Below, piece after piece: positions 309 to 14,412 of a DNA stretch of 64,000 bases. The position numbers and the translations under genes are program-made. Location: the IMG/VR virus record IMGVR_UViG_3300032288_003197, positions 1 through 64,000 of that record; one strand, written 5' to 3'. Origin of the DNA: a virus. Numbering within the stretch: the first letter of the stretch is position 1; every line of letters begins with the position of its first letter. A model generated the notes under the pieces. The model was not told the origin of the DNA, made no database searches, and saw only the letters and a program-made list of their open reading frames with translations.

Positions 309-319
309 ACTGTATTTAT

Positions 320-397
320 TGGAGCATCGGGCTGGATTTGAACCAGCGAATCAACGGATTTGCAATCCGCGCCATTAGACCGCTCTGGTACCGATGC
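320..397 (-). tRNA. tRNA-Cys(GCA)
   Basis: Cloverleaf, anticodon loop TTGCAAA, GGTTCAAATCC, encoded CCA. Confidence 0.95.
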
Positions 398-403
398 ATT
401 GTT

Positions 404-478
404 TGGTAGGTGGTGACGGGATCGAACCGCCGACAGCTGCCGTGTAAAGACAGAGTTCTACCGCTGAACTAACCACCC
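404..478 (-). tRNA. tRNA-Val(TAC)
   Basis: Cloverleaf, loop TTTACAC, GGTTCGATCCC, CCA. Confidence 0.95.
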
Positions 479-486
479 AAATTGCG

Positions 487-648
487 TTATTGTTTGGTGC
501 GTTTGCTGCCGCGCAGTTCGCTTTCAAGAATGCGAACATAGTCCCGAACAAATTCACCGCGATGGTGATCATCAAGAATCTTTGCAGCTATGCGTTTTAC
601 ACTCTTGGGGAGCTTCACTGCTCGTGGATCATAACCTCTGCATGTCAT
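487..648 (-). CDS. hypothetical protein (MTCRGYDPRAVKL...)
   Basis: ORF filling the gap between tRNAs; start trimmed to the ATG outside tRNA-Pro. Confidence 0.6.
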   Translation of the reverse strand: MTCRGYDPRAVKLPKSVKRIAAKILDDHHRGEFVRDYVRILESELRGSKRTKQ

Positions 649-667
649 ATCTACTCTTTCTAAAAAA

Positions 668-744
668 TGGTCGGAGTACAAGGATTCGAACCTTGGACCC
701 CCTGGTCCCAAACCAGGTGCGCTACCAGACTGCGCCACACTCCG
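668..744 (-). tRNA. tRNA-Pro(TGG)
   Basis: CGGAGTG acceptor, loop TTTGGGA, CCA. Confidence 0.95.
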
Positions 745-751
745 AATAAAC

Positions 752-967
752 TTACTTTAACTTTGGATCAATGCTTTTGTCAACTTCATGCGACTCTGCA
801 AACCGTTGTGGTTGGTCCATCCACATGGGAAAAAACTTCCACCCAAAACTTTTCCAGTATTTGTGAATGATGTTATTGATGAGCACTGCTCCAGCAACAA
901 TCACAATCAAACCCATCATTATCAAAATGCTTGCTGCTAAAAACACAGCTGACTGATCCATGTTCAT
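752..967 (-). CDS. small membrane protein
   Basis: AAGGA RBS; N-terminal hydrophobic helix. Confidence 0.65.
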   Translation of the reverse strand: MNMDQSAVFLAASILIMMGLIVIVAGAVLINNIIHKYWKSFGWKFFPMWMDQPQRFAESHEVDKSIDPKLK

Positions 968-977
968 GTTATTCCTT

Positions 978-1051
978 TGGAGCGGGGCAGGAGAATCGAA
1001 CTCCTCGCATGAGCTTGGAAGGCTCAGGTATTACCACTATACGAGCCCCGC
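978..1051 (-). tRNA. tRNA-Gly(TCC)
   Basis: Cloverleaf, loop CTTCCAA, CCA. Confidence 0.95.
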
Positions 1052-1065
1052 GTTGCAATTTAGTT

Positions 1066-1094
1066 ATTGTACGACAACTCGTCATTGTCGTCAA
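1066..1094 (-). promoter_or_regulatory. sigma70-type promoter inside tRNA array
   Basis: TTGACG-17nt-TACAAT upstream of tRNA-Gly(TCC). Confidence 0.65.
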
Positions 1095-1100
1095 CACATT

Positions 1101-1177
1101 TGGTGGTGAAGGTCAGGATCGAACTGACGACCTCAGGGTTATGAATCCTGCGCTCTCACCGGCTGAGCTACATCACC
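1101..1177 (-). tRNA. tRNA-Met(CAT), probably elongator
   Basis: Cloverleaf, loop TTCATAA, paired 1-72. Confidence 0.9.
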
Positions 1178-1178
1178 A

Positions 1179-1253
1179 TGGGGTGTCGTATGAGAATCGA
1201 ACTCATGATAGCGGAATCACAACCCGCGGTTTTACCACTAAACTAACGTCACC
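1179..1253 (-). tRNA. tRNA-His(GTG)
   Basis: Loop TTGTGAT, G-1/C73 signature, CCA. Confidence 0.93.
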
Positions 1254-1287
1254 ATATAGAAACACACTACAACAATAGGTTTTTATA

Positions 1288-1361
1288 TGGTAGGGGTGCA
1301 GGGGAACGATCCCTGTTTTACTGGTTAAAAGCCAGTTACTTCACCTTAAAGTTTCACCCCC
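1288..1361 (-). tRNA. tRNA-Lys(TTT), atypical T-loop
   Basis: ACTGG-CTTTTAA-CCAGT anticodon arm, CCA; T-loop reads GATCGTTC instead of GTTCGAATC. Confidence 0.85.
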
Positions 1362-1389
1362 TGGGTTTATCACTCTTGTCACTGTCCAT
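1354..1389 (-). CDS. putative 11-aa micropeptide MDSDKSDKPRG
   Basis: Strong AAGGAG RBS before ATG; stop TGA lies inside the 5' end of tRNA-Lys. Confidence 0.4.
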   Translation of the reverse strand: MDSDKSDKPRG

Positions 1390-1436
1390 GGGACTCTCCT
1401 TTTAATTAAACTTTTGATGCAATCTGTAAATATTGC

Positions 1437-2234
1437 ATGTCAGATATCACAGTAATTTTTCAAAATCAACCGCCAATACATATCAAACTCTATGATACTG
1501 CTGCTGCCGCGCATTGGCGCAAACTGTTTGTTCAAAACTATCAACAAAAATTTCCACTGTTTCGGGACATGCAAAAATATACCTGGAAATATCTTGAACA
1601 TCTAGTAGATCAGGCAAACAAAACATGTGGATGGAATTTTACAACACAAATTCAAAATCTTCAAGACACAGTGGATTTGCACAAACACATTGAAGTCACG
1701 TTGGCCAACGGATATCAAAACATCCCATCTGACTGGGACCACTTGCTGGACGAGTTACATTTTGCCTTGCATACTGTCCAGCAAACAAAACTGTCTAACA
1801 TATCACGCCGTGGTAACTTTCTTCAAATTGAGTGGTTCAACGATGATTATGTTCCATTACCAGAAGATTTTGTGTTTACATCAAATCTTCAATTTGGAGA
1901 TCTAAGACTTCAAAATGCCTATGTGGGGCACATCCCGTTACAGATTTTTGAACAAAATGATTTTGCCAATGTTTTTCAAACTTGTCGATTTCATGACAGA
2001 ATCAAACCGGGACTAAACATTACAATTTTTTCAGGCAACCGTGTACTACCCAACATCGAAACCTATACTCAATGGTGGAATACTCATGCCCCAGAGTTTG
2101 TCAAATATCATGGCTGGAACAAAATTATGTACTACACTGGACATCCAATCATTGGGCAAGTTGTCAACACCGATGATCTTGCCAAGGTTGCCACATGTGC
2201 CGAAGTATTAGAACTTCAAGAAGTGATTTACTGA
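1437..2234 (+). CDS. hypothetical protein
   Basis: 265-aa ORF, AT-richer than flanks; only convincing plus-strand gene in the window. Confidence 0.8.
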   Translation: MSDITVIFQNQPPIHIKLYDTAAAAHWRKLFVQNYQQKFPLFRDMQKYTWKYLEHLVDQANKTCGWNFTTQIQNLQDTVDLHKHIEVTLANGYQNIPSDWDHLLDELHFALHTVQQTKLSNISRRGNFLQIEWFNDDYVPLPEDFVFTSNLQFGDLRLQNAYVGHIPLQIFEQNDFANVFQTCRFHDRIKPGLNITIFSGNRVLPNIETYTQWWNTHAPEFVKYHGWNKIMYYTGHPIIGQVVNTDDLAKVATCAEVLELQEVIY

Positions 2235-2244
2235 TTTAAAAATT

Positions 2245-2325
2245 TGGTACCCCAGACGGGATTTGAACCCGCATTTAAATTTCTCCTTTTGAGAGAGACG
2301 ACTTTGCCAATTTGTCTACTGGGGC
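2245..2325 (-). tRNA. tRNA-Leu(CAA)
   Basis: Loop CTCAAAA, extended variable arm, CCA. Confidence 0.9.
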
Positions 2326-2332
2326 ACAAAAA

Positions 2333-2408
<76 letters not shown>

Positions 2409-2415
2409 ATTGTAT

Positions 2416-2491
2416 TGGCTCCCCGACCTGGATTCGAACCAGGCTTCACGGATTAACAGTCCGCCGCCTTCACCTAGATTGCTCTCGGGGA
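2416..2491 (-). tRNA. tRNA-Asn(GTT)
   Basis: Loop CTGTTAA, G73, CCA. Confidence 0.93.
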
Positions 2492-2980
2492 ATTTAATTT
2501 TTTGTATCTTATATTTTTTGCTCGGTGTGTCGGTGTTTGACTATGACAGTTCGGACACAAGATACGCAAGTTTTCAATTTTATTATTAACGTTGTTTCCG
2601 TCTATGTGATCTAATTCTAATGATAATGGCTTGCCGTTGTAAACATTGCTAATTCCACATTCTTCGCAAGTATGATTGCGTTCAACTAACAATCTTCTTC
2701 GCAATGAATCATGGGCCATTTCTTCGTGTGGACGACTCCAAGATTTTGCTCTATGAATTGCAGAAGTTTTTCTTTGGGCTTCCGCTTTATCATACTTTAA
2801 CATCTTTTGAGCATTAATTTCTTTGCGCTGTGCTTCGGTAGTATCAGAATAAAAGTCCAACATTGCCTTGCGCTTTTTTTCTTTAGATTTGTCTGTAAAA
2901 GTCCTGCTGTTAGCACAACTTCGGCTGCAAAACAAACCTTGTTTTTCATGAACCATGCTGCATTTTGGACATGCTTTCAT
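2474..2980 (-). CDS. HNH homing endonuclease
   Basis: CxxC...LELDHIDGNNVNNKIENLRILCPNCH; stop overlaps tRNA-Asn 5' end. Confidence 0.92.
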   Translation of the reverse strand: MKACPKCSMVHEKQGLFCSRSCANSRTFTDKSKEKKRKAMLDFYSDTTEAQRKEINAQKMLKYDKAEAQRKTSAIHRAKSWSRPHEEMAHDSLRRRLLVERNHTCEECGISNVYNGKPLSLELDHIDGNNVNNKIENLRILCPNCHSQTPTHRAKNIRYKKLNSPRAI

Positions 2981-2983
2981 ATT

Positions 2984-3021
2984 GAACCTCCGATACTTTT
3001 ATTTATATCTTTCGGAGGTTC
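2984..3021 (-). promoter_or_regulatory. RBS-sequestering hairpin with late promoter in its loop
   Basis: GAACCTCCGA/TCGGAGGTTC 10-bp stem hides GGAGG; TATAAATA in the loop. Confidence 0.8.
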
Positions 3022-3035
3022 GACGCTAGATAACT

Positions 3036-3110
3036 TGGTGCCCCGGGGGTGAATCGAACACCCGACCTCGGATTACAAAACCGATGTTTTACCACTAGAA
3101 CTAACGGGGC
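3036..3110 (-). tRNA. tRNA-Thr(TGT)
   Basis: Loop TTTGTAA, CCA. Confidence 0.94.
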
Positions 3111-3119
3111 TAAATTTTT

Positions 3120-3209
3120 TGGCGGAGAGTTAGGGAGTCGAACCCTATCAGCGGCTCGTCACCACCGCGGGATTAGCAATCCCGTGCCTTACCATCCGGC
3201 CCACTCTCC
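3120..3209 (-). tRNA. tRNA-Ser(GCT)
   Basis: Loop TTGCTAA, long variable arm, G73. Confidence 0.95.
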
Positions 3210-3218
3210 GTCTACGCT

Positions 3219-3247
3219 ATTATATAGTCGACACTGTTGTGTGTCAA
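3219..3247 (-). promoter_or_regulatory. sigma70-type promoter inside tRNA array
   Basis: TTGACA-17nt-TATAAT, perfect consensus, upstream of tRNA-Ser. Confidence 0.75.
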
Positions 3248-3255
3248 CAAAATCT

Positions 3256-3332
3256 TGGTGCCTGTTCGTGGTCTCGAACCACGGACCCCCGCGTTATCAA
3301 CACGGTGCTCTAACCAACTGAGCTAAACAGGC
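3256..3332 (-). tRNA. tRNA-Ile(GAT)
   Basis: Loop TTGATAA, CCA. Confidence 0.95.
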
Positions 3333-3335
3333 CAC

Positions 3336-3411
3336 TGGCAGGGGATGATGGGATCGAACCACCGAATGTCTGAATCAAAATCAGATGCCTTACCACTTGG
3401 CGAATCCCCTA
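3336..3411 (-). tRNA. tRNA-Gln(TTG)
   Basis: Loop TTTTGAT, CCA. Confidence 0.93.
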
Positions 3412-3417
3412 CAAACA

Positions 3418-3492
3418 TGGCATCCCGCCAGGGATTCGAACCCCGTCCCACGGTTTTGGAGACCGTCATGCTGCCGTTGACACCAGCGAGAT
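3418..3492 (-). tRNA. tRNA-Trp(CCA)
   Basis: Loop CTCCAAA, CCA end. Confidence 0.92.
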
Positions 3493-3499
3493 ACAAATA

Positions 3500-3575
3500 T
3501 GGTGGAGGTAAACGGGATCGAACCGATGACCCCCTGCTTGCAAAGCAGGTGCTCTCCCAGCTGAGCTATACCCCC
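3500..3575 (-). tRNA. tRNA-Ala(TGC)
   Basis: G3:U70, loop TTTGCAA. Confidence 0.96.
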
Positions 3576-3584
3576 AAACTTTTA

Positions 3585-3785
3585 ACACACTCTTGAGAAT
3601 GTGTGTATTAAAGCATACTAGCCGCTCTGTTTCTTCTGTATGCCTACAGATTGTATCCATTCGTCTAATATGCTTTAATACGCTGTGATTTTTCACACCA
3701 CACAAGGTGCTCCATCCCACAGGCCGCCCATTTGCAACTGTTTAGAGTGTGTTGCAGGATCGCGTTTCCTGGTCGCACTTGGAGA
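3585..3785 (-). ncRNA. unassigned structured RNA candidate(s)
   Basis: 17-bp stem 3605-3621/3665-3681 (G-U pair only on minus strand) plus a GC-rich multi-stem unit at about 3703-3782; no credible ORF. Confidence 0.5.
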
Positions 3786-3959
3786 TCAAAGATCAAAAAT
3801 TCGAGCTTTGGATTCTCTCTGGTTTACTTTTTCACGAAATGCTCGAGCTCGTTCATACTTTTCATCAATCAGTTTGCGAAACTGTTCCTCGGTAAGGTGA
3901 TTTTCAGTAGTGAATTTGATCTCTCGCATGCGTTTTCTAAAATCAATTTTTTCCTTCAT
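3786..3959 (-). CDS. small basic hypothetical protein (MKEKIDFRKR...)
   Basis: ORF starting just after the attenuator terminator. Confidence 0.6.
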   Translation of the reverse strand: MKEKIDFRKRMREIKFTTENHLTEEQFRKLIDEKYERARAFREKVNQRESKARIFDL

Positions 3960-3971
3960 AATCTTTTGCAA

Positions 3972-4039
3972 AACAAAAAACCCAGGGTGTTTAGTCCTGG
4001 GTCCTGGGGTAAGATACAGTTGTATGTTACTTAGGACCC
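3972..4039 (-). terminator. attenuator 1: mutually exclusive terminator/antiterminator
   Basis: Terminator ACCCAGG-loop-CCTGGGT+TTTTT; antiterminator GGGTCCT(4039-4033)/AGGACCC(4005-3999) shares ACCC with the terminator. Confidence 0.8.
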
Positions 4040-4141
4040 TGAGCCTCCTGGAATGCTGTTCAAGCCTGTAAATGTGCGTGGCCAGACTGATGTCTGAGGC
4101 ATCGCAGATTTTTGTAGCACTGAACACATTGTATGTTTCAT
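4031..4141 (-). CDS. leader peptide 1 (36 aa) MKHTMCSVLQKSAMPQTSVWPRTFTGLNSIPGGSGS
   Basis: Manual translation; directly behind promoter; last codons and stop overlap the antiterminator 5' strand. Confidence 0.72.
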   Translation of the reverse strand: MKHTMCSVLQKSAMPQTSVWPRTFTGLNSIPGGSGS

Positions 4142-4151
4142 CTTAAGTCCT

Positions 4152-4180
4152 ATTGTACTTTATTTATGATTGTTTGTCAA
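4152..4180 (-). promoter_or_regulatory. composite sigma70 + late promoter for leader 1
   Basis: TTGACA-17nt-TACAAT with CATAAATA inside the spacer. Confidence 0.75.
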
Positions 4181-4209
4181 CCAAGAATTGATTCCGTGTT
4201 ACGCGGAAT

Positions 4210-4284
4210 TGGTTGCGGGGGGAGGAATCGAACCTCCGGCTTCCAGGTTATGAGCCTGGCGGTCTACCGCTGACGTACCCCGCG
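4210..4284 (-). tRNA. initiator tRNA-fMet(CAT)
   Basis: C1:A72 mismatch, CGCGGGG acceptor, loop CTCATAA. Confidence 0.9.
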
Positions 4285-4312
4285 ATATGTTATAAATCAA
4301 ACAAGTTGTTGG

Positions 4313-5146
4313 TCAGCCCGGAAACCAATCTTTTTCTTCGTCGAACTTGTAGTTGTCTGGCAGTACAACCTTGTTTGAATGATCAACCAAATCAAGCAAT
4401 TGAGGTTTGGGAACCCCAGTAATTCTAATTTGTCTTCTACGTGAAGTGCAAACCGGAACTCCATGCAAAAAGTAATCACTGGACAAATACACCGGATCGT
4501 TGGATTTCAAAACTGTTTTGTTGTCAGCACCGTCCAAACTCCACCACAGTGGAACACCGCCATCACTGAGATTTAGCACCATGATCACATGTCCTTGTTG
4601 ATATACACCATTGTTGACACCTAAATTTTTAGTAAATGATGTTCCACTATCAAATTCATATCTCAAGTCGCGATGTATGCAGGCAAACGATCCCGGCTCC
4701 ATGCTTACGCAATGTATACTTACAATTCTTTGAAACGGTAATTTTTTTAAAATAAATTCTACAATTTTTAATTGCTTGAACTCGGGTTTTAACTTGTACA
4801 ATCTATGCAAATGATGATTGCGCATGGTAGAACCGCCTATGCCAGCACGTAGTTTTACATACTCACTATCTGAGTCAACAAGGTGAAGTTCCAATAATTG
4901 AGTTATATCAAATTGAGGAATCCCATCAGAAATACCACATTCTGTTTCCACACTGATCTTATCATACAAGTCTGGATCTACCATGCCCCAACTTTGATTG
5001 AGTTGCCGGGTGTTACTCCAAACTGATTCAAGAGATCTTATTTGTCGTGCCGCTGGTAAAATACAATTATCATATTCATCGATAAAAATTGTAGGATCAA
5101 AATCAATGTTGAGTTTTGCGTAGGCAAAATTTGCAAATGGGTGCAT
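4313..5146 (-). CDS. putative 2OG-Fe(II) oxygenase-like protein
   Basis: HxD (IHRD)...H (FLHGV)...R pattern. Confidence 0.55.
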   Translation of the reverse strand: MHPFANFAYAKLNIDFDPTIFIDEYDNCILPAARQIRSLESVWSNTRQLNQSWGMVDPDLYDKISVETECGISDGIPQFDITQLLELHLVDSDSEYVKLRAGIGGSTMRNHHLHRLYKLKPEFKQLKIVEFILKKLPFQRIVSIHCVSMEPGSFACIHRDLRYEFDSGTSFTKNLGVNNGVYQQGHVIMVLNLSDGGVPLWWSLDGADNKTVLKSNDPVYLSSDYFLHGVPVCTSRRRQIRITGVPKPQLLDLVDHSNKVVLPDNYKFDEEKDWFPG

Positions 5147-5191
5147 GGGGTATTTATTGGTACAAAGTCGCATTTCAAACTATTACAACTT

Positions 5192-5411
5192 CAATTTGTT
5201 TTGGTCAAACTGGTCGTCTTCTGCTTTGCGTTTAAAGGTACACAATGCTTGTGTGTAAAGCATGGTCTTCCTTCCAGGCACATGGACTGACTGTGACTAG
5301 CAGTCCAGAACTTAATCCCCAGCGGCCCTGGATTCAGTATTGTCCTCAGCAGATAGGCCCGTCGTCATCGAGTTTTTGACACAGACAGACCAGTTTGACC
5401 AAAACAAATTG
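5192..5411 (-). ncRNA. unassigned structured RNA closed by a perfect 24-bp inverted repeat
   Basis: CAATTTGTTTTGGTCAAACTGGTC (5192-5215) / its reverse complement (5388-5411); internal hairpins such as TGGACTG/CAGTCCA. Confidence 0.6.
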
Positions 5412-5500
5412 GTAGGAGTGGTGGGAATCGAACCCACATTCGCCGCCTTATCTAGACGGTGCTTACGAGGATATAAATCTCGCCCTTAGGCCAATATTAG
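5410..5500 (-). tRNA. atypical tRNA-like RNA, apparent anticodon TAT, very long variable arm
   Basis: GGGAGTG/CACTCCT-A-CCA acceptor and canonical T-arm; weak D-stem; loop TTTATAT; about 28-nt extra region with CCGTCT/AGGCGG stem. Confidence 0.7.
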
Positions 5501-5519
5501 CAACACTCCCATTATTCTC

Positions 5520-5667
5520 ATAGTCAAGCACCGAGAGATGCCGATTTGTCAACAAAGGTGCTTCCTCTGACAAGCGAATAGCAGTTATATCAGGACCTGT
5601 TCCTCGCACAGTTAGGCCCGCATAGTGACAGCGTCCCGTCACGATACCTGTATCGATGCTTGACTAT
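5520..5667 (-). ncRNA. unassigned structured RNA
   Basis: 15-bp closing stem ATAGTCAAGCATCGA/TCGGTGCTTGACTAT plus internal hairpins GTGACG/TGTCAC and TTGTCA/TGACAA. Confidence 0.55.
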
Positions 5668-5677
5668 AAAAACAAAA

Positions 5678-5875
5678 ATGCTCTGCATCCCCCGGCGGTA
5701 ATTGTACTGCATCAAGTACCAGGAACCCCCAGCACCATCACACACAGCTTCCACCCGCTTCACGACAGGGACCGTTATCGTATTGCCAACGCTGTTTAGG
5801 CTAGAACAGTACCGCCCGTGAGTGTCATCTCACTTCTCATCGTCTGGGACCAGACTATCCAGTGACGCTGGAACG
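5678..5875 (-). ncRNA. manA-motif RNA
   Basis: Recalled motif blocks CCCAGACGATGAGAAG, GGGCGGT, GCAATACGA, GCGGGTGGAAG, AATTACCGCCG; this motif is known from phage tRNA clusters. Confidence 0.75.
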
Positions 5876-5884
5876 TTTGTTTGC

Positions 5885-6073
5885 TCACCGAACTGGCGAG
5901 CGTAATTTAAATGTTGGTGACGGTGTCAAGTTCTCTGGCGGCTTGACAACCACAGTGTTGGACTGTCGATAATCTCGAAAAATTTCCAACACCAACCATG
6001 CCCATACTGCTATAGAAGTCACAGCGATCATGCTCAAAAGAACGATGCCAAACCAATGCATAATAGTCGTCAT
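5885..6073 (-). CDS. small membrane protein
   Basis: MTTIMHWFGIVLLSMIAV... single hydrophobic helix; start trimmed to avoid tRNAs. Confidence 0.6.
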   Translation of the reverse strand: MTTIMHWFGIVLLSMIAVTSIAVWAWLVLEIFRDYRQSNTVVVKPPENLTPSPTFKLRSPVR

Positions 6074-6084
6074 GTTGTATTTAA

Positions 6085-6161
6085 TGGCGCACCGTAGGGG
6101 ACTTGAACCCCTGACCCCTTGCGTGACAGGCAAGTGCGCTGACCAACTGCGCCAACGGTGC
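6085..6161 (-). tRNA. tRNA-Asp(GTC)
   Basis: Loop CTGTCAC, G73. Confidence 0.95.
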
Positions 6162-6162
6162 A

Positions 6163-6247
6163 TGGTGGAGATGATTGGGATCGAACCAATTGTGACCGAA
6201 GTCGGCGGATTTACAGTCCGCTGCCATACCATTACGGCGGCACCTCC
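6163..6247 (-). tRNA. tRNA-Tyr(GTA)
   Basis: Loop CTGTAAA, long variable arm. Confidence 0.95.
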
Positions 6248-6326
6248 ATGATACTTGCTACGGGACGCCAAATTCTTACGGTCGTTTAAGAGTAGGCGGC
6301 CACAGCCGCACACTCTCCCTTAAAAA

Positions 6327-6402
6327 TGGTACTCGGTACGGGAATCGAACCCGTCTTACTGACGTGAAAGGCCAGTGTCCTAAACCGATAGACGAACCGA
6401 GC
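6327..6402 (-). tRNA. tRNA-Glu(TTC)
   Basis: Loop CTTTCAC, CCA. Confidence 0.94.
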
Positions 6403-6477
6403 AATTCTATATGTAAACACACAAATTGTGTGCTTGCATATAGAGTCTGCACTCAACGCAGACTCTATACGAATCTA

Positions 6478-6545
6478 ATTTTTAAAGAACGTTGTCGGTT
6501 TCCCAACACAGCCTCTAGTATAACACTCTAGGCTTTTTGTGTCTA
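6478..6545 (-). promoter_or_regulatory. sigma70 promoter followed by rrn-like boxB-boxA
   Basis: TAGACA-17nt-TATACT; then TGTTGG-GAAA-CCGACA hairpin and CGTTCTTTAAAAAT. Confidence 0.65.
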
Positions 6546-6551
6546 CCACAT

Positions 6552-6618
6552 AAAGAAAAACCCTGCTAGTTGCAGGGCCTTTGTTGATGTAGTAATTTTT
6601 ACTTACTGACAAAGACCC
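6552..6618 (-). terminator. attenuator 2: terminator/antiterminator
   Basis: Terminator CCCTGC-AACTA-GCAGGG+TTTTTCTTT; antiterminator GGGTCTTTGT(6618-6609)/ACAAAGGCCC(6584-6575) overlaps its 5' arm. Confidence 0.78.
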
Positions 6619-6680
6619 AACAGAACACCCTGCTCATAATCTGAGCCCTGTATAGGATTGAATGCGATTGTTGTCATCAT
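6603..6680 (-). CDS. leader peptide 2 (25 aa) MMTTIAFNPIQGSDYEQGVLLGLCQ
   Basis: Manual translation; ATG 7 nt after the -10 box (leaderless); last codons overlap the antiterminator 5' strand. Confidence 0.68.
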   Translation of the reverse strand: MMTTIAFNPIQGSDYEQGVLLGLCQ

Positions 6681-6686
6681 GGTGTA

Positions 6687-6715
6687 ATTGTATATGATTA
6701 TTTATACTGTGTCAA
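6687..6715 (-). promoter_or_regulatory. composite sigma70 + late promoter for leader 2
   Basis: TTGACA-17nt-TACAAT with TATAAATA (6706-6699) inside the spacer. Confidence 0.75.
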
Positions 6716-6767
6716 GCGAAAGACTTCAAATTTGGACAAATAGATCGATTGCACAGCACGATCAAGC

Positions 6768-7490
6768 TCACAGAGCCCGAACCCACTCGGTGGGTCGCAA
6801 CCATGTGCTGTAGATATGATCTGCTGTGGCTTGATGTTGTGCCAAGTGTGGTTCTATGCCGGCCACTATGGCTGCACTGTCTTGTACAGATTCGTACAGC
6901 TCTCGTGCTTGGGCCCACTTGGGGTCTTCGTCTGCTGCCCAGGCCTGTGCTTTTTCTGCGTCCATTTCGATGTGAAACTGCATGGCTAGATGTGGACCCA
7001 TGCTCCAGGCTTGGTTAGGACAAGCACTGGATCCAGCCAAGCGTGTGGCGCCCCGAGGCACCGTGAATGCGTCATAGTGCCATTGAATCACTGTGGGTGT
7101 GGGTGCAGGACCAAACCATTTTTCAACTTCGGCATGGGTTTCATATTGTATAGACTGCCAACCAATCTCGGGCCGGGGCGAAGTGCCCACAGTTGCTCCT
7201 AGTGCTCGACTCATGAGTTGTCCGCCAAGACAGTGTCCAATCACTGGAACATCCCGAAGCACAGCCTGCAAGATCAATATTTCAGCCTGACGATTACTCA
7301 GCAAGTCATCATTGGCACTCATGCCACCGCCCATGACAGCCAAGGCTGCATAGGGTTCAATGCTGGCAGGGAATGGTTGTCCTAGCCCAGCGTTGTGAAC
7401 TTCAAACTTGATCTCGTGTTGGGTCAACCATGTCACAAGGTAAGCCGCCCACTCCGGGGTTTGATGCTGTAGTATTAGTATGGGTTTCAT
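6768..7490 (-). CDS. class I glutamine amidotransferase
   Basis: GHCLGGQ nucleophile elbow and QFHIE His-Glu. Confidence 0.9.
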   Translation of the reverse strand: MKPILILQHQTPEWAAYLVTWLTQHEIKFEVHNAGLGQPFPASIEPYAALAVMGGGMSANDDLLSNRQAEILILQAVLRDVPVIGHCLGGQLMSRALGATVGTSPRPEIGWQSIQYETHAEVEKWFGPAPTPTVIQWHYDAFTVPRGATRLAGSSACPNQAWSMGPHLAMQFHIEMDAEKAQAWAADEDPKWAQARELYESVQDSAAIVAGIEPHLAQHQATADHIYSTWLRPTEWVRAL

Positions 7491-8074
7491 TACAAGGCCT
7501 GTTGGATTCTATCAAGTATGATTTCTACTACTTGATTGCTGAGTACAACTTCGTAGTGATTTAGTGGTAATTCTATGAGTTCAAAGTCTGTTCTTGATCG
7601 CATGCTTTCTATTGTGACAACACCATCATTGGATTCTTGAATCCAAGGACTGTCGCCACGAGTTGTGACAATATTGGTCCAACGTGGTGGTGCAGGTAAT
7701 TTTTTTGCGTCCAGCATGGGTCCACTCATGGTTCCGATATCTTTCATCAAGCGATTAAAGGGCAAAAAGTATCGTGCAAAGTCTGCTTGAGCACACCCAC
7801 CATACGGAGTGCTGAGTGATATGCCACCGCAGGTTCGATCTTGATAATGATTGGCCAGGTGCAAGGCATAGATACCGCCCAGGCTATGGCTGACAAAAAA
7901 CAGTCTTTCTGCATCATCCAAGGCGCCTTTCATGAGGCCAAGGTTGTGGGCAAACCCATCTGCACTGTTGTATTCAAGTGCGATGTCTGGCAATTCGGTG
8001 TGTTCTCTCACATATTCTCTAATGTGGGTGAAGCTTTCGGCAGTGGCACTGGCACCGTGTATATACACTATCAT
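7490..8074 (-). CDS. alpha/beta hydrolase
   Basis: YIHG, SHSLGG, DGVV, NH catalytic motifs. Confidence 0.88.
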   Translation of the reverse strand: MIVYIHGASATAESFTHIREYVREHTELPDIALEYNSADGFAHNLGLMKGALDDAERLFFVSHSLGGIYALHLANHYQDRTCGGISLSTPYGGCAQADFARYFLPFNRLMKDIGTMSGPMLDAKKLPAPPRWTNIVTTRGDSPWIQESNDGVVTIESMRSRTDFELIELPLNHYEVVLSNQVVEIILDRIQQAL

Positions 8075-8093
8075 CGAAATATTTAGCCAAAGG

Positions 8094-8115
8094 AAAACCC
8101 GCCGAAGCGGGCTCC
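8094..8115 (-). terminator. intrinsic terminator after tmRNA
   Basis: GCCCGC-TTCG-GCGGGT-TTT. Confidence 0.8.
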
Positions 8116-8456
8116 GAGTTTCTGTTACGAGGTATGTCTTACCCTAGGCTGCGTTTAGGCTGCCAATGCGAACTGTTCGTCGTTTGCGTTTACGTTTTTT
8201 GCTTGATTTACGGTCATCGCCTACCGTGCTGTCCACTCCGTTACTCTTGACCCAATCGATCCTGTGTCAGGCCCATCAAAAAGATTCTTCCATCTGTCCA
8301 GTGCTTCGTGATAGCTGATCCAGACACATCCTTCGCAACCTCGGCCACAACAAGTAGTTGGCTCTTGTGGTCTAGGGTAAAAATCTTTTTGGTGGACCTG
8401 GGCGGCACTGCCCCGCCGTCTTGAATCCGTTTCTCTTTGCTTCATACAGCAATAAC
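8115..8456 (-). ncRNA. ssrA: permuted two-piece tmRNA, tag ANDEQFALAA
   Basis: Acceptor piece ends GGTCCACCA (8390); intervening segment 8389-8275; coding piece starts GGGCCTGAC (8274); tag frame 8187-8155; promoter TTGACG-17-TATACT upstream. Confidence 0.92.
8221..8445 (-). CDS. ORF through tmRNA carrying a Cys-rich oxidoreductase-like domain in the intervening segment
   Basis: [29 protein letters not shown] resembles the Oxidored-like N-terminal domain (PxEP..CC..GC..CVW..Y...L..W). Confidence 0.5.
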
Positions 8457-8472
8457 TTGCAGTATACTGTTT

Positions 8473-8691
8473 TTAGATATTGTCGTCAACCAGTTCGATC
8501 ACGTAGCCAATGTATTCTTTGGCGCGCTCACCGTCGCCAGCATCAATGGCTCCTTGTGCATCATCCAAGTAACCCATCATCTGACTGCGCAGATCGGCCA
8601 TGCTGCCTTCGCGTCGGTCTGGACGAGGAGCATCCATTGCGTCTGCTTCTTTGATGATGTCAATGTATCGTTTTAAATTGCTCATGGTCAA
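8473..8691 (-). CDS. hypothetical protein, possible internal virion protein
   Basis: TATAAATA late promoter and AGGA RBS; N-terminus LKRYIDIIKE. Confidence 0.7.
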   Translation of the reverse strand: MTMSNLKRYIDIIKEADAMDAPRPDRREGSMADLRSQMMGYLDDAQGAIDAGDGERAKEYIGYVIELVDDNI

Positions 8692-8724
8692 AATCCTTTG
8701 GTGTATTTATAGATAGATCAGTTT

Positions 8725-9378
8725 TTATTTGAGTATTTGTAGATCCTGGTGCTGGGACACGCGGGTAAACTCAATGTTGGGGGGCGTATTCCTACTGATT
8801 TGTATGGCCACACGAACGGACTCGACGTTCTCTACCGCATGCAATATTGCACTGTTGATACACACCCATTTCTCTGCGGGCAAGCAAACTCGATCAATTT
8901 CTTCCAATGTGTCAAAATTCTTTGTGATGAGATTGGGATCAAAAACTGACTTCAAGTCAGGGCGCAAGAGCGGATACCCATGCTGTCTGTACCATGATGT
9001 TTCTACACGACTGCCGCCAGTGTCCAGGATATACATGATAGTGTAGTCCCTACTGATGTCCACGTGCGGGGCAAAGAACGAACTGTGTGCGTCATATACT
9101 GCTACACCACATGGCGCAGGGTCTTGATCAAAATACTGGCGTACCCATGCATCAAACTCTTCGCTGATACTGTACCTATGAGACTTTATTGTCTTGACTT
9201 CCGACCCATCTCGCAGAGTAAAATTTCGATATTCATACTCTGCATAGCCTGGCCGATCAAGCCAATTATTCACCTTGACTTCGTGATTGCCCTTGTTTGT
9301 TTCTAGACTTGCCCAGGCCGCATCCACAATTGTTTGCGGCAAGGGTGGCAAGTCTAAAAATGCATAGGTAAATGTCAC
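8725..9378 (-). CDS. putative 2OG-Fe(II) oxygenase-like protein
   Basis: APHVD...LHAVEN...RVAIQ. Confidence 0.6.
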   Translation of the reverse strand: MTFTYAFLDLPPLPQTIVDAAWASLETNKGNHEVKVNNWLDRPGYAEYEYRNFTLRDGSEVKTIKSHRYSISEEFDAWVRQYFDQDPAPCGVAVYDAHSSFFAPHVDISRDYTIMYILDTGGSRVETSWYRQHGYPLLRPDLKSVFDPNLITKNFDTLEEIDRVCLPAEKWVCINSAILHAVENVESVRVAIQISRNTPPNIEFTRVSQHQDLQILK

Positions 9379-10262
9379 TTTTTGGTTTTTTCTGCTATTT
9401 GTTCAAAGATTCGAATTTCTCTGTTGGCATACTGCGCAGATCTCTGTGGTCCATAATTCAACACAGTAAGACCCAGCAAATCTTTGAAACTGGTATTGGT
9501 GGAATCTTGAACCAGTCGTGACATTTCTGTTACAGCAGTACGATCGGTGTCTTGTCTGGCCCAGACTGCGTACCAATTGTTGGTGTAATTTCCACTGAAT
9601 CCCATTTCACTGGCAGTGGGCACATTTGGCAGCTGAGGCAGTCTCCGCTCTCCAAACACCATGACAGGACGAACTTGTCCGTTGTTGAAAGACGGCCCAA
9701 TTCCGGTGTAAGCCAAAACTCCGTATTCAGTATGACCGGGCAACACATCGTTGACCATTGGTGCCAGCCCTTTGTAAGGAATCAAGTTGAGTCGCGTGGG
9801 CCATTTTAGATCATTGAGCCATATTTCTCCTTGATTGGCAACACCCACATTAATGATGTCTTGATTTCGGATCTGTTGTCTGATCTTGGTATCGCTGCCA
9901 GCGGTGAACATCACATATGGACTTTCGCCGATCAATGACACTGGTACAAATTCTCGATAAGTGTTGGTGCCCAGCATTGCCGGACCCACCACAAATCCAG
10001 CCTCGGCAACGATAAATGTGTGATTGTCGTTGGGCCTATTCAAAACATGTGTGGTAGCAACCGCCAGTGCCGCGCCAGGCATGTATTGAACTTCAACTGG
10101 AACTGAAACTTTACCTTGAAAGTCTTTTTGCATGGCTCTTGCAAATTTATCAATAAGTCCACCAGGCGGATACGGAACAATAAGAGTAATGGACTTAGAC
10201 GGCCATGCCAGTGCAGACACTGAGATTAGCATGGCCGAGATAAAGGTCAACAGTTTTTTCAT
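9375..10262 (-). CDS. Bug/TctC tripartite tricarboxylate transporter substrate-binding protein
   Basis: Signal peptide, WPSKSITLIVPYPPGG, IPYKG, RLPQLPNVPTASEMG. Confidence 0.88.
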   Translation of the reverse strand: MKKLLTFISAMLISVSALAWPSKSITLIVPYPPGGLIDKFARAMQKDFQGKVSVPVEVQYMPGAALAVATTHVLNRPNDNHTFIVAEAGFVVGPAMLGTNTYREFVPVSLIGESPYVMFTAGSDTKIRQQIRNQDIINVGVANQGEIWLNDLKWPTRLNLIPYKGLAPMVNDVLPGHTEYGVLAYTGIGPSFNNGQVRPVMVFGERRLPQLPNVPTASEMGFSGNYTNNWYAVWARQDTDRTAVTEMSRLVQDSTNTSFKDLLGLTVLNYGPQRSAQYANREIRIFEQIAEKTKK

Positions 10263-10352
10263 ATATCCTCTCAAAAAGTAATTGTTGAACAAAAGCACTG
10301 CTAGAGTGCTTTTGTCCGGTGCTGACAACGGGGACGATTCCCGCGTTGCTGT

Positions 10353-11312
10353 TTATTGATGTTGTTGAATGCTTTCGACCAAACCAGGAGTGAATGTATC
10401 GCGGAATTGATCATACACACCGCTCAGTGCAGCCTTGGCAGCTTCGCGTTGTTCTTGTGTCCACTTCACAATGTTGGCACCTTCTTCTGCAACAAGACGC
10501 TGTTCGGCACGAGCACCGTCACGAATGGTTTCGGCACGCTCTTCGCGACCAGCCAGCACAGCAGCTTGTTTGATCACTGCTTGAACTTCGGGACTCAATG
10601 TATCCCAGAACTTGTCGCCAATGATCATTGATGTAAGGAACAAACTGTGACCAGTGTCAATCACTGACTTGGTAACTTCGTTCTGACGCAGTGGATACAC
10701 ACGTGGGTAGTTGGTTTCACCGCCTTCAGCTTCACCGTCAACCACGACCTGACGCAGGTCTTCTACTTCGGCCACAACAGGCTTCATGCCCAGTGCAGAA
10801 ATAGTTGCTTGTGCAACAGGATTACGGTTTGAACGAACTGGTGTTCCTGCAAGCTCTTCCAATGTGCTGACTCGCTTGTTGGAAATCATTTGGCGGAAGC
10901 CACCTGAGTATGTGAAACTCAAGCCACGCACATTTGACTTGTCTGTGAGCTTGGCAAGCAGTGTTTCACCAACTTTGCCCTCTAGTACACGAGTTGCGTG
11001 ATCGTGGTCTTTGAACAAGAATGGGAGATCAAATACCAAAAAGTCCTGCTCGTACTTCTCAGCAAGCCATGTGGTGTACATTTGACTCATTTCAATTTTG
11101 CCCTGTTCCATGAGGTCCAGTAGATCGTGCTTGGTGACCACAACGCCGTTGTTGTAGCGTTGGCTGTACTCGGTAAGAGTCATGATTTCCACTTCGATTT
11201 TGTGCTCGCTTTGTTGCTCGTTTACACGACGCTCAAAGTCTTCAGCAGCACGAAGGAAAAGATTCAAAGGTTCATGGGCAATGACCCAGCGAATTTTGGT
11301 AGTGTTACTCAT
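10353..11312 (-). CDS. DctP-family TRAP substrate-binding protein without signal peptide
   Basis: FDLPFLFKDHDHA, GGFRQM, KFWDTLSPEVQAVI; N-terminus not hydrophobic. Confidence 0.85.
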   Translation of the reverse strand: MSNTTKIRWVIAHEPLNLFLRAAEDFERRVNEQQSEHKIEVEIMTLTEYSQRYNNGVVVTKHDLLDLMEQGKIEMSQMYTTWLAEKYEQDFLVFDLPFLFKDHDHATRVLEGKVGETLLAKLTDKSNVRGLSFTYSGGFRQMISNKRVSTLEELAGTPVRSNRNPVAQATISALGMKPVVAEVEDLRQVVVDGEAEGGETNYPRVYPLRQNEVTKSVIDTGHSLFLTSMIIGDKFWDTLSPEVQAVIKQAAVLAGREERAETIRDGARAEQRLVAEEGANIVKWTQEQREAAKAALSGVYDQFRDTFTPGLVESIQQHQ

Positions 11313-11455
11313 TTTTATATCCAGATTAGGTAGTTTAAATGTGCTTGCGAGGTTGCTCGCTACGGTTGGCGTTCTAGGCATAACATGCTAGTAAAGGAGT
11401 CCATACTCCAGGCGTCTTTGACCCGACGTCGACCACTTGATCGGCGCTGCCATGT

Positions 11456-12355
11456 TTATTTAGTCAGAGACACGCCTTGACTCAAACGTTTCCATAGTGC
11501 CACCTGTGAATCAAACCAAATCTGTGTGGCCGTGGTGTTGAGGTTGCTGGGATCACAGTAGTCCACAGCATAGGCACGCTGCACTGCATCTGTTCGGCCG
11601 GCTTGCAGTACCAAACTTCGCAGTTCTTGGTACTGTGCTTCGGGCATGGATTTTGGCACTTGCAAACTGTGCATGTTAACCACCTCGCCCACTCCAGCAA
11701 AGCCCTGACTTTCCAAGGTGGCAATGCCACGCACTGTTTTCTTGCCTGAAATGCCCAGGGCGTTGAGGTCACCCTTGTCCAAGAATCCTTCAACTTCGCC
11801 CAAGAATGCCACGCTGAGATCAATGTTGCCCGAGATAGCATCAATACTGGCTTCGCGTGTGCCTTTGTAGGGCACCGGGGTGGCGTTGGGATAGCGTTTG
11901 ACAATTTCCATGGCCATGAGGTGTGAAGTGGCGCCAAGGCCAGAAATGCCAATGCTGATCTTTTGATTGCGGTCAATTTCACGCCAACTACGATACTTCT
12001 TGCTCACAATCAACATGGGTGCTGCACACTGAGTCATCAGCGGACGGAAGTCACTGACTCGATGACTCTCATCGGGATAAAAGTTAGGGCGCACAAAAAA
12101 AGCTGTACTCGCGGCCAGCACAGCGTTTGGTGTAGCTGCCACATGTTTGGCACCAATGGTTGCACCGGCACCGGGCTTGTTCTCCAAGATAAAGTTGTAT
12201 TTCTTTTGACCAGCGTTGAGCTCTTCTACCAAGCTGCGACTGTACTGTGCCTGTGTATCGCCCATGCCAAACGGCCAAACAATAGAAATAGTTTGTTGTG
12301 CTTGTGCAGCAAAATATGTCAGAGCCGCTGCTGCAGAAATTAGAAGTTTTTTCAT
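11456..12355 (-). CDS. Bug/TctC-family substrate-binding protein
   Basis: Signal peptide, ENKPGAGATIG, SGLGATSHL, VPYKG. Confidence 0.88.
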   Translation of the reverse strand: MKKLLISAAAALTYFAAQAQQTISIVWPFGMGDTQAQYSRSLVEELNAGQKKYNFILENKPGAGATIGAKHVAATPNAVLAASTAFFVRPNFYPDESHRVSDFRPLMTQCAAPMLIVSKKYRSWREIDRNQKISIGISGLGATSHLMAMEIVKRYPNATPVPYKGTREASIDAISGNIDLSVAFLGEVEGFLDKGDLNALGISGKKTVRGIATLESQGFAGVGEVVNMHSLQVPKSMPEAQYQELRSLVLQAGRTDAVQRAYAVDYCDPSNLNTTATQIWFDSQVALWKRLSQGVSLTK

Positions 12356-14322: not shown

Positions 14323-14334
14323 GTATATATCCTT

Positions 14335-14409: not shown

Positions 14410-14412
14410 AAT

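What the first reader, a model, noticed from the sequence alone, without database searches (positions are those of the whole stretch)
6552..6715. Attenuator 2: leaderless 25-codon ORF with GAT-TAT-GAG (Asp-Tyr-Glu) upstream of tRNA-Glu/Tyr/Asp
Seen: the ATG sits at the predicted +1. The D-Y-E triplet ends 14 nt before the antiterminator strand GGGUCUUUGU, about the edge of a stalled-ribosome footprint. That strand pairs 10 bp with ACAAAGGCCC and takes CCC from the terminator stem. The first three genes downstream are exactly the Glu, Tyr and Asp tRNAs. Inference: stalling at D/Y/E causes read-through.
Basis: partly seen in the sequence, partly recalled or inferred. Interest (0 to 1): 0.85.

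Follow-up and report, generated by a model that had tools for sequence, protein, structure and literature searches.

The report
Leader-peptide attenuator before phage tRNA genes
A giant freshwater phage puts a tiny translated reading frame and a switchable stop signal in front of its own tRNA genes, an arrangement that could raise tRNA output when the cell's protein synthesis falters.

Summary
On the minus strand there is a near-consensus promoter, a start codon at the predicted first transcribed base, a 25-codon frame with adjacent Asp, Tyr and Glu codons, an intrinsic terminator, and a 10-pair alternative helix that takes three bases of the terminator stem. tRNA-Glu, -Tyr and -Asp follow.

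It is not a one-off. I found about 24 distinct units of the same design heading tRNA arrays in related uncultivated jumbo-phage contigs. In every unit tested, the strongest partner of the terminator's 5' flank lies at the end of the short frame, although the sequences differ. The conserved core of that strand is read in three different frames. This supports a ribosome-dependent transcription attenuator: finishing the frame causes termination, and stalling before the end causes read-through.

The claim that Asp, Tyr and Glu are the sensed codons is only partly supported.
- **For:** the Glu codon is invariant in 11 of 11 close relatives, the motif sits at the last permissive stall position, and cognate residues are modestly enriched.
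- **Against:** there are counter-examples, a second promoter lies behind the terminator, and there are no expression data.

It is a new variant of classical attenuation, here applied to phage tRNA genes.

The parts
6710..6715 (-). P1 -35 hexamer, 6 of 6 to consensus
6687..6692 (-). P1 -10 hexamer, 5 of 6, 17-base spacer
6603..6680 (-). Leaderless 25-codon leader frame including its stop codon. The start codon is at the predicted first transcribed base.
   Evidence: The frame is kept open in relatives despite mostly non-synonymous change.
6633..6641 (-). Adjacent Asp, Tyr and Glu codons, the proposed stall site. They lie inside a small 5-pair hairpin at 6646-6632.
6609..6618 (-). Antiterminator 5' strand, formed by the last codons of the leader frame
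6575..6584 (-). Antiterminator 3' strand. Its last three bases are the first three of the terminator stem.
6561..6577 (-). Intrinsic terminator hairpin: 6-pair stem, 5-base loop
   Evidence: It has one compensatory pair in 4 of 11 relatives.
6552..6560 (-). T-rich tract of the terminator
6517..6545 (-). Second promoter-like site (P2), 10 of 12 with an extended -10, directly behind the terminator
   Evidence: A promoter at the same place occurs in relatives.
6477..6508 (-). Hairpin (6508-6493) followed by a motif (6490-6477) that resembles the boxA of ribosomal RNA operons. The resemblance is recalled, not tested.
6408..6442 (-). Inverted repeat just before tRNA-Glu. Relatives carry variable inserts in its loop.
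6327..6402 (-). tRNA-Glu (anticodon ttc)
6163..6247 (-). tRNA-Tyr (anticodon gta)
6085..6161 (-). tRNA-Asp (anticodon gtc)
3969..4180 (-). Sibling unit of the same design. It has the same promoter type, a 36-codon frame (4141-4031), an antiterminator across the stop codon, and a terminator hairpin at 4001-3981. A 57-codon gene, a structured non-coding stretch and six tRNAs follow.

Best explanation
This is a ribosome-mediated transcription attenuator at the head of the phage's main tRNA region.

**Proposed mechanism.** Host RNA polymerase starts at P1, and the transcript begins with the start codon of a 25-codon frame, so it is translated without a leader.
- If the ribosome runs to the end of the frame, it covers the strand at 6618-6609. 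The terminator hairpin at 6577-6561 then forms and the transcript ends about 155 bases before tRNA-Glu.
- If the ribosome is held up earlier, that strand pairs with 6584-6575 and withholds three G-C pairs from the terminator. Transcription then continues into tRNA-Glu, -Tyr and -Asp, adding to what the second promoter P2 provides.

**Where stalling works.** The Asp, Tyr and Glu codons lie at the last place where a stalled ribosome still leaves the strand free. Shortage of exactly those charged tRNAs is therefore the most likely trigger. This would be a feedback loop in which the phage makes more of a tRNA when that tRNA runs short.

**Shown:** the sequence elements, their conservation as a design across a family, and their association with tRNA arrays.
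**Inferred:** the transcription start, translation of the frame, the switch itself, and the identity of the signal.
For: **1. A family of units exists.**
- A scan of 174 held sequences (1.69 Mb) for a promoter, a start codon 3-12 bases after it, a 15-65-codon frame and a hairpin with T run gave 30 units. 26 of the 30 are followed by same-strand tRNAs.
- Among hits to a bare promoter-plus-start pattern, 11 of 15 with a short frame and terminator have tRNAs within 3 kb. Only 10 of 58 without them do (Fisher p = 7e-5). A further 51 hits with long frames were not examined.
- In a complete 344-kb relative, the single unit sits at the head of a 28-tRNA array.

**2. The alternative pairing is conserved as a design.**
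- In 19 of 19 distinct units, an unbiased search of the whole leader places the best partner of the terminator's 5' flank within -32 to +11 bases of the stop codon.
- 17 of the 19 are matched by at most 3 of 300 shuffles. The sequences differ between subfamilies.

**3. Translation matters, but the peptide sequence does not.**
- All 11 close relatives have the start codon exactly 6 bases after the -10 hexamer.
- Change between close relatives is mostly non-synonymous, yet the frame stays open.
- The invariant 9-base antiterminator core is read in three different frames in different relatives. Each frame still stops within or just after it.

**4. Stall model.** I used a constrained partition function with the RNA cut at the end of the hairpin.
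- Terminator probability is 0.75 with no ribosome.
- It is 0.2, 0.1 and 0.2 with the A site on Asp, Tyr and Glu, and at least 0.8 from two codons later.
- In 8 of 9 close relatives the Asp/Tyr/Glu-rich motif lies at the last permissive positions.

**5. Codon and tRNA matching.**
- The Glu codon is invariant in 11 of 11, and tRNA-Glu is in the first cluster of all 11.
- The leaders use the Glu codon that makes up only 25% of Glu codons in the phage's genes in 14 of 18 cases.
- A relative with the Tyr codon replaced by Asp has Glu then Asp tRNAs with no Tyr between.
- Leu-rich leaders go with two Leu tRNAs at the front in L039, L177 and L185.
- Over 24 units, the share of leader residues cognate to the first 3 tRNAs is 0.188, against 0.152 +/- 0.009 with arrays permuted.

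**6. Population variants.** A Tyr codon change seen in contigs of 3 runs is synonymous, and it breaks a pair of the small hairpin.
Against: - **A second promoter.** A promoter-like site lies between terminator and tRNAs here and in most relatives. The attenuator can only modulate tRNA output, not gate it.
- **Few regulatory codons.** There is one codon each of Asp, Tyr and Glu, 3 of 23 residues, where about 16% is expected. Classical attenuators have runs of such codons.
- **A weak equilibrium switch.** With six bases of the T tract included, the terminator wins at every ribosome position (at least 0.7). RNAalifold lets 6 of the 10 antiterminator pairs coexist with the terminator, so only 3-4 pairs compete. 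In variant L041 the model gives 0.3, 0.7 and 0.9 at Asp, Tyr and Glu.
- **A counter-example.** L176 has two Tyr and four Leu codons and no Val codon, yet is followed by Val, Glu, Asp and so on, with no Tyr or Leu tRNA in 3.5 kb.
- **Family motifs independent of the array.** Trp occurs in 17 of the first 19 leaders, and Tyr-Trp and Asp-Arg motifs recur whatever tRNAs follow.
- **Limits of the statistics.** Clustering of cognate residues is not significant against within-peptide shuffles (p = 0.13-0.21). The units are homologous, so the permutation p-values overstate independence.
- **Within-subfamily covariation is uninformative.** 7 of 10 antiterminator pairs are invariant and none is compensatory.
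- **Other units control other genes first.** Units of the sibling type are followed first by a small protein gene and a non-coding RNA, not by tRNAs.
Confidence: 0.45

Rival explanations
1. The same ribosome-dependent attenuator, but without codon specificity. It would report whether the leader can be translated at all, through ribosome availability or general elongation rate. It would raise tRNA-region transcription under any translation stress. The Asp/Tyr/Glu motif would be inherited family sequence or RNA structure.
For: - In many units the model gives read-through by default and termination only when a ribosome occupies the last 6-10 codons. Examples are the sibling unit in the window, L064, L134, L175 and L185.
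- Stalling at codons 4-8 of this leader also gives antitermination.
- Enrichment of cognate residues is small, 0.19 against 0.15, and their clustering is not significant.
- L176 is a counter-example to matching.
- Trp and Tyr motifs recur irrespective of the array.
Against: - The Glu codon is invariant in 11 of 11, using the codon that is rare in the phage's own genes.
- Tyr-to-Asp and Leu-richness changes go with changes in the tRNA set.
- Permutation of arrays gives lower matching than observed.
- A synonymous Tyr change occurs in natural variants.
Confidence: 0.27
2. P1, the short frame and the terminator form a separate small transcription unit, either a micro-protein gene or a small RNA. 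The tRNAs would be transcribed only from P2, and the pairing of the frame's end with the terminator flank would be part of a compound 3' structure.
For: - P2 lies directly behind the terminator.
- RNAalifold draws a 6-pair helix stacked on the terminator hairpin as one consensus structure.
- At equilibrium with the T tract included, the terminator always forms in this unit.
- Some peptide motifs are conserved in the wider family.
Against: - The C-terminal part is read in three frames.
- There is no ribosome-binding site.
- Change is mostly non-synonymous, and length ranges from 25 to 49 codons.
- In several units the terminator cannot form in the model unless a ribosome is at the end of the frame.
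- One unit, L046, has no second promoter, and its terminator is followed at once by the tRNAs.
- The units are tightly associated with tRNA arrays.
Confidence: 0.13
3. A factor-dependent switch. A phage or host protein, or a tRNA, would bind the leader RNA and decide between the two helices, as in temporal early-to-middle control. The frame would be incidental.
For: - Near-consensus host-type promoters followed by terminators are typical of phage early units. This is general knowledge, not tested here.
- The antiterminator core is invariant in 11 of 11.
Against: - No Rfam family, T-box included, matches the leader at E up to 1.
- The start codon at a fixed distance from the -10 hexamer and the stop codon in the antiterminator strand are kept throughout the family. 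A protein-binding switch would not require either.
Confidence: 0.07

Closest known systems
Classical leader-peptide attenuators of amino-acid biosynthetic operons in enterobacteria (trp, his, phe, thr, leu, ilv leaders). Established knowledge, recalled.
   Same: - A promoter-proximal short frame and an intrinsic terminator before the regulated genes.
- A mutually exclusive upstream helix.
- A ribosome at the stop codon covers the antiterminator strand, so termination follows.
- A ribosome stalled earlier gives read-through.
- In this unit the model also finds an upstream pairing that sequesters the strand when nothing is translated.
   Different: - The regulated genes are tRNAs of a phage, not biosynthetic enzymes.
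- The frame is leaderless.
- There is one codon each of three amino acids rather than runs of one.
- Only half of the terminator stem is shared with the antiterminator.
- A second, unattenuated promoter follows.
- Many family members lack the upstream pairing and default to read-through.
Attenuator of the phenylalanyl-tRNA synthetase operon (pheST, with its Phe-rich leader peptide). Recalled.
   Same: A leader-peptide attenuator that couples expression of a component of the translation apparatus to the supply of the matching charged tRNA.
   Different: It controls a synthetase gene of a cell through several Phe codons. Here the tRNA genes themselves would be controlled, in a virus, by mixed codons.
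Leaderless cysteine-rich short frames acting as attenuators in mycobacteria. Recalled from the literature, not retrieved in my searches.
   Same: A leaderless short frame upstream of the regulated genes, whose translation speed sets downstream expression.
   Different: Those act in actinobacterial chromosomes on cysteine metabolism. I did not check their mechanism or sequences here.
T-box riboswitches
   Same: A terminator/antiterminator choice that reports the charging state of a particular tRNA.
   Different: - T-box leaders bind the tRNA directly, need no translation and are 200-300 bases long.
- No T-box match was found.
- Here a translated frame is the conserved feature.
Phage tRNAs as counter-defence (Azam et al. 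2024, PMC11555353; abstract read)
   Same: Phage tRNA regions supply tRNAs that host defences destroy. In that work tRNA-Tyr is degraded by retron-Eco7 effectors and T5 rescues infection with its own tRNA-Tyr.
   Different: That work describes a strong constitutive promoter for the T5 tRNA. It describes no sensing or feedback element.

Membership tests
Ribosome-mediated (leader-peptide) transcription attenuator | Short translated frame between promoter and regulated genes | tested here: met
   There is a 25-codon frame at 6680-6603. The frame is kept open in 11 of 11 close relatives and in 24 distinct family units. Translation itself is not shown.
Ribosome-mediated (leader-peptide) transcription attenuator | Intrinsic terminator upstream of the regulated genes | tested here: met
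   Hairpin at 6577-6561 plus T run. It is 100% paired in 11 relatives, with one compensatory pair.
Ribosome-mediated (leader-peptide) transcription attenuator | Antiterminator helix mutually exclusive with the terminator | tested here: met
   The 10-pair helix shares 3 bases with the stem. The overlap is 4-13 bases in 19 units. The partner is located at the frame's end in 19 of 19. Caveat: 6 of the 10 pairs can coexist with the terminator.
Ribosome-mediated (leader-peptide) transcription attenuator | Stop codon placed so that a terminating ribosome covers the antiterminator strand | tested here: met
   The stop codon at 6605-6603 lies 4 bases after the strand. In 19 of 19 units the strand lies within -32 to +11 bases of the stop codon.
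Ribosome-mediated (leader-peptide) transcription attenuator | Upstream segment that sequesters the antiterminator strand when there is no translation (pause or anti-antiterminator hairpin) | tested here: inconclusive
   The minimum-energy fold pairs bases 3-21 with 51-67 of this leader. Terminator probability without a ribosome is 0.75 here but near 0 in many relatives.
Ribosome-mediated (leader-peptide) transcription attenuator | Regulatory codons for the amino acid(s) linked to the regulated genes, enriched and placed at the stall position | tested here: inconclusive
   Placement is met. Enrichment in this leader is not met, at 3 of 23. The family-wide share is 0.188 against 0.152 on non-independent units. 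L176 is a counter-example.
Ribosome-mediated (leader-peptide) transcription attenuator | Read-through rises when the cognate charged tRNA is scarce | not testable with these tools
   This needs reporter or transcript-end measurements.
T-box riboswitch | Stem I with specifier loop and the conserved T-box sequence in the antiterminator | tested here: not met
   No Rfam match other than tRNAs and tmRNA in 1-16000 at E up to 1.
Ribosomal-RNA-type antitermination leader (boxB hairpin and boxA) | boxA-like sequence shortly after the promoter | tested here: inconclusive
   A motif at 6490-6477 after P2 recurs at the same place in relatives. The core occurs twice in the window against 0.2 expected. 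Its likeness to boxA rests on recall only. It concerns P2, not the finding's switch.

The most novel reading that the evidence does not exclude
These jumbo phages may carry a family of leaderless 'mirror' leader peptides. The codons of each would reflect the first tRNAs of the array behind it. When a host defence or starvation depletes those particular host tRNAs, ribosomes would stall on the leader, the terminator would fail, and the phage would switch on its replacement tRNAs. That would be an inducible, self-correcting tRNA supply and counter-defence sensor built from a classical attenuator.
Probability: 0.3. Interest if true: 0.9.

Novelty: new variant of a known kind. Interest (0 to 1): 0.72.

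Why it matters
Phage tRNA arrays are usually treated as constitutively expressed codon-usage helpers or as spare parts against tRNA-cleaving defences. A translation-sensing switch at their head would mean the phage measures the state of the host's decoding machinery and adjusts its own tRNA output.

It would also be, to my knowledge, the first leader-peptide attenuator described for tRNA genes and for a virus. Six literature searches found none.

The family is short, modular and easy to test in reporter assays. It could serve as a natural sensor of the availability of specific tRNAs.

Tried and rejected
**Readings considered and rejected**
- **T-box or another known RNA family.** No Rfam match on the leader at E up to 1.
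- **Second register of the antiterminator.** It would use the Glu-Gln-Gly codons against the whole terminator 5' strand and is the best duplex in this sequence. I rejected it as the conserved one because L041 and L054 lose it.
- **Overlapping 12-codon frame starting inside the Tyr-Glu codons.** It has no ribosome-binding site and is not considered further.
- **The small hairpin around Asp/Tyr/Glu as the reason for their conservation.** This is weakened by a natural synonymous Tyr change that breaks its closing pair.

**Searches that led nowhere**
- **Neighbour synteny.** Of 31 loci encoding relatives of the upstream 240-residue protein, only 1 (L002) carries this leader. 3 of the 31 have any tRNA within 1.8 kb.
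- **tRNA-Glu anchor.** Of 19 loci sharing the tRNA-Glu 3' part, only 1 carries the leader, on the same contig as L002.
- **Cultured phages.** 124 records matched, but only over tRNAs.
- **Five relatives' whole records searched with the 721-base region.** Only tRNA-sized matches appeared.
- **Expression.** No RNA holder was listed.
- **Widening the sample through the small protein behind the sibling unit.** The alignment was too divergent and the single protein found nothing.
- **PHROGs on that protein.** No family.
- **Supplementary files of papers** were not consulted and do not bear on any claim here.

**A test not run.** An exploratory 'best window' test asked how many of the first tRNA identities fall within one short window of the leader.
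Full report
**What the window is.** It is the first 64 kb of a 72-kb viral contig that CheckV rates 21% complete, so it is a fragment of a jumbo phage of roughly 340 kb.
- Almost all long frames and all 22 tRNA genes lie on the minus strand.
- A permuted tmRNA of the betaproteobacterial type lies at 8092-8489.
- No cultured phage record resembles the region beyond its tRNAs.

**The observation.**
- Promoter P1 scores 11 of 12 to consensus, with a 17-base spacer.
- A start codon begins on the seventh base after the -10 hexamer.
- A 25-codon frame follows, with adjacent Asp, Tyr and Glu codons at 6641-6633.
- Fourteen bases further on is a 10-base strand (6618-6609). It pairs with 6584-6575 with one G-U pair, at -14.2 kcal/mol.
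- The terminator hairpin lies at 6577-6561 (-10.0 kcal/mol) with a T tract, and its first three bases belong to that pairing.
- tRNA-Glu, -Tyr and -Asp are the next three genes.
- The leader folds better than shuffles (z = -3.05).
- A contiguous Asp/Tyr/Glu in any order has probability 0.017 in a random 23-residue peptide of this phage's composition.

- a second promoter-like site directly behind the terminator (6545-6517);
- a hairpin and a conserved motif behind that promoter (6508-6477);
- an inverted repeat just before tRNA-Glu (6442-6408).

**Close relatives.** The neighbouring protein gene was a poor guide. Only 1 of 31 loci encoding a relative of it carries the leader. The tRNA-Glu sequence led to the same contig only.
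- A terminator pattern found one more copy, in a metagenome contig (L054). Homology there begins about 25 bases upstream of the -35 hexamer, so the unit moves as a module.
- Among the window, L041 and L054, the first twelve codons and codon 18 change, mostly non-synonymously.
- The promoter, the Ser-Asp-Tyr-Glu-Gln codons, the antiterminator strand, the terminator and P2 do not change.
- Contigs of three sequencing runs add variants with the same pattern. One carries a synonymous change of the Tyr codon that breaks a pair of the small hairpin in which the three codons sit.

**A family.** Scanning all held loci for a promoter followed by a hairpin with T run gave units of the same design in front of other tRNA arrays. 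A bare promoter-plus-start pattern gave many more.
- In all, 30 units turned up in 1.69 Mb, and 26 of them are followed by same-strand tRNAs.
- About 24 distinct units remain after removing near-duplicates.
- Among pattern hits, a short frame plus terminator goes with downstream tRNAs in 11 of 15. Without them the figure is 10 of 58 (p = 7e-5).
- The window holds a second unit at 4180-3969.
- A complete 344-kb relative has exactly one, at the head of its 28-tRNA array.
- A gapped pattern taken from the window's antiterminator pair gave the closest subfamily, 11 distinct sequences aligned as A1.

**Why this is an attenuator and not a small gene.**
- First, in 19 of 19 distinct units the best partner of the terminator's 5' flank, searched over the whole leader, lies at the end of the frame. 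That is within -32 to +11 bases of the stop codon, and 17 of 19 are beyond 297 of 300 shuffles. The paired sequences differ between subfamilies.
- Second, the start codon sits 6 bases after the -10 hexamer in 11 of 11 subfamily members and in most other units. It sits at 3, 7, 10 or 11 bases in four others. One relative (L040) has only a two-codon frame there and a longer one further on.
- Third, the peptide is not conserved as a protein. Lengths run from 25 to 49 codons, and close relatives differ mostly by non-synonymous changes.
- Fourth, the invariant nine-base core of the antiterminator strand is read in three different frames, each ending within or just after the strand.
- Within the subfamily the antiterminator is too conserved to show covariation. 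The terminator has one compensatory pair.

**The switch in this unit.** I computed the probability of the terminator hairpin with a 28-base stretch masked for a ribosome at each codon.

| State (RNA cut at the end of the hairpin) | Terminator probability |
|---|---|
| No ribosome | 0.75 |
| A site at codons 4-8 | 0-0.1 |
| A site at the Ser codon | 0.7 |
| A site at Asp, Tyr, Glu | 0.2, 0.1, 0.2 |
| A site at the next codon | 0.5 |
| A site beyond that | 0.8 or more |

- In 8 of 9 subfamily members the Asp/Tyr/Glu-rich motif lies at the last permissive positions. In L041 only the Asp position is permissive.
- The switch is weak at equilibrium. With six bases of the T tract added, the terminator wins everywhere.
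- RNAalifold shows that six of the ten antiterminator pairs can stand beside the terminator hairpin, so only three or four pairs compete. Kinetic control has to be assumed.
- Many other family members behave more simply in the model. They read through by default and terminate only when a ribosome occupies the last six to ten codons.

**Are Asp, Tyr and Glu the sensed codons?**

Evidence for:
- The Glu codon is the only invariant codon of the frame body in 11 of 11, and tRNA-Glu is in the first cluster behind all 11.
- The leaders use the rarer Glu codon, which makes up 25% of Glu codons in the phage's genes, in 14 of 18 cases. They use one Tyr codon in 14 of 15.
- L175 has Glu-Arg-Glu-Tyr-Asp before Glu, Tyr, Asp, Asp. 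Its near relative L182 has Glu-Arg-Glu-Asp-Asp before Glu, Asp, Ile. That contig ends 0.5 kb later, so a more distant tRNA-Tyr cannot be excluded.
- Leaders in front of two Leu tRNAs are Leu-rich (L039 group, L185).
- Other subfamilies show similar echoes, for example Pro and Ala codons close together before Pro and Ala tRNAs in the complete relative.
- Over 24 units, the share of residues cognate to the first 3, 4 and 5 tRNAs is 0.188, 0.220 and 0.260. With arrays permuted it is 0.152, 0.184 and 0.222. Proteome expectation is 0.148, 0.181 and 0.217. With 19 units, p was 0.004-0.02.

Evidence against:
- The units are homologous, so these p-values overstate independence.
- The enrichment is small.
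- Clustering is not significant against within-peptide shuffles (p = 0.13-0.21).
- This leader has just one codon each of the three amino acids.
- L176 contradicts the matching.
- Trp (17 of the first 19 leaders) and some motifs recur whatever follows.
- Units of the sibling type are followed first by a 57-codon gene and a structured non-coding stretch.

**Role of the second promoter.** Behind the terminator, nearly all subfamily members have a further promoter, then a hairpin and a conserved motif that recalls the boxA of ribosomal RNA operons (recalled, not tested), then the tRNAs. One unit (L046) lacks that promoter. The tRNAs are therefore probably made at a basal level from P2. P1 would add to this only when its transcripts pass the attenuator.

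**Comparison with what is known.** The design is that of the classical leader-peptide attenuators. The differences are listed under Closest known systems. Six full-text searches found no attenuator described for tRNA genes or for phage tRNA arrays. I saw listings only, except for passages of PMC3082878 (not relevant) and the abstract of PMC11555353. The latter shows that phage tRNAs rescue infection when defences destroy host tRNA-Tyr or tRNA-Lys. That gives the proposed feedback a plausible use.

**Verdict.**
- The attenuator reading is well supported by comparison, at about 0.7 when the specific and general versions are counted together.
- The codon-specific reading is plausible but unproven.
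- No expression evidence could be obtained.

Noticed in passing
window 3969-4180 (-): A second unit of the same design. It has the same promoter type, a 36-codon frame, an antiterminator across the stop codon, and a terminator. In the model it reads through unless a ribosome is in the last six codons.
   Followed up: partly
window 3789-3959 (-) and 3610-3800 (-): Behind the second unit lie a conserved 57-codon gene with no PHROG match and a roughly 170-base conserved non-coding stretch. The stretch has no Rfam match and fold z = -2.0. The same pair follows units of this type in L033, L040, L052 and L053.
   Followed up: partly
window 8092-8489 (-): A phage-encoded permuted (two-piece) tmRNA of the betaproteobacterial type, with its own promoter-like site at 8489-8461. 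It hints at the host group.
   Followed up: no
window 6477-6545 (-): A second promoter, a hairpin and a motif resembling the boxA of ribosomal RNA operons (recalled) stand ahead of the tRNAs. The same order is seen in L035, L036, L037, L039 and L046.
   Followed up: partly
window 6408-6442 (-); L041, L054, L037, L039: An inverted repeat sits directly before tRNA-Glu. In relatives its loop carries unrelated inserts of about 45-80 bases, as if it were a processing stem or an insertion site.
   Followed up: no
window 6248-6326 (-); L038, L039: The spacer between tRNA-Glu and tRNA-Tyr is a conserved two-hairpin sequence also present in distant relatives. It has no Rfam match.
   Followed up: no
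window 5413-5510 (-): Rfam's tRNA model matches a 98-base stretch (41 bits) that ARAGORN did not call. It may be a tRNA with an insert or a long arm.
   Followed up: no
window 2474-2980 (-): An HNH endonuclease gene sits inside the tRNA region, between the Thr and Asn tRNAs.
   Followed up: no
L176 4917 and 6208: Two tRNA-Val genes with unusual anticodons (aac and cac) stand where relatives have Leu tRNAs. This is the locus that contradicts the leader-to-tRNA matching.
   Followed up: no
window 5888-6071 (-): A short hydrophobic frame begins 14 bases after tRNA-Asp, so the transcription unit seems to continue into protein genes.
   Followed up: no
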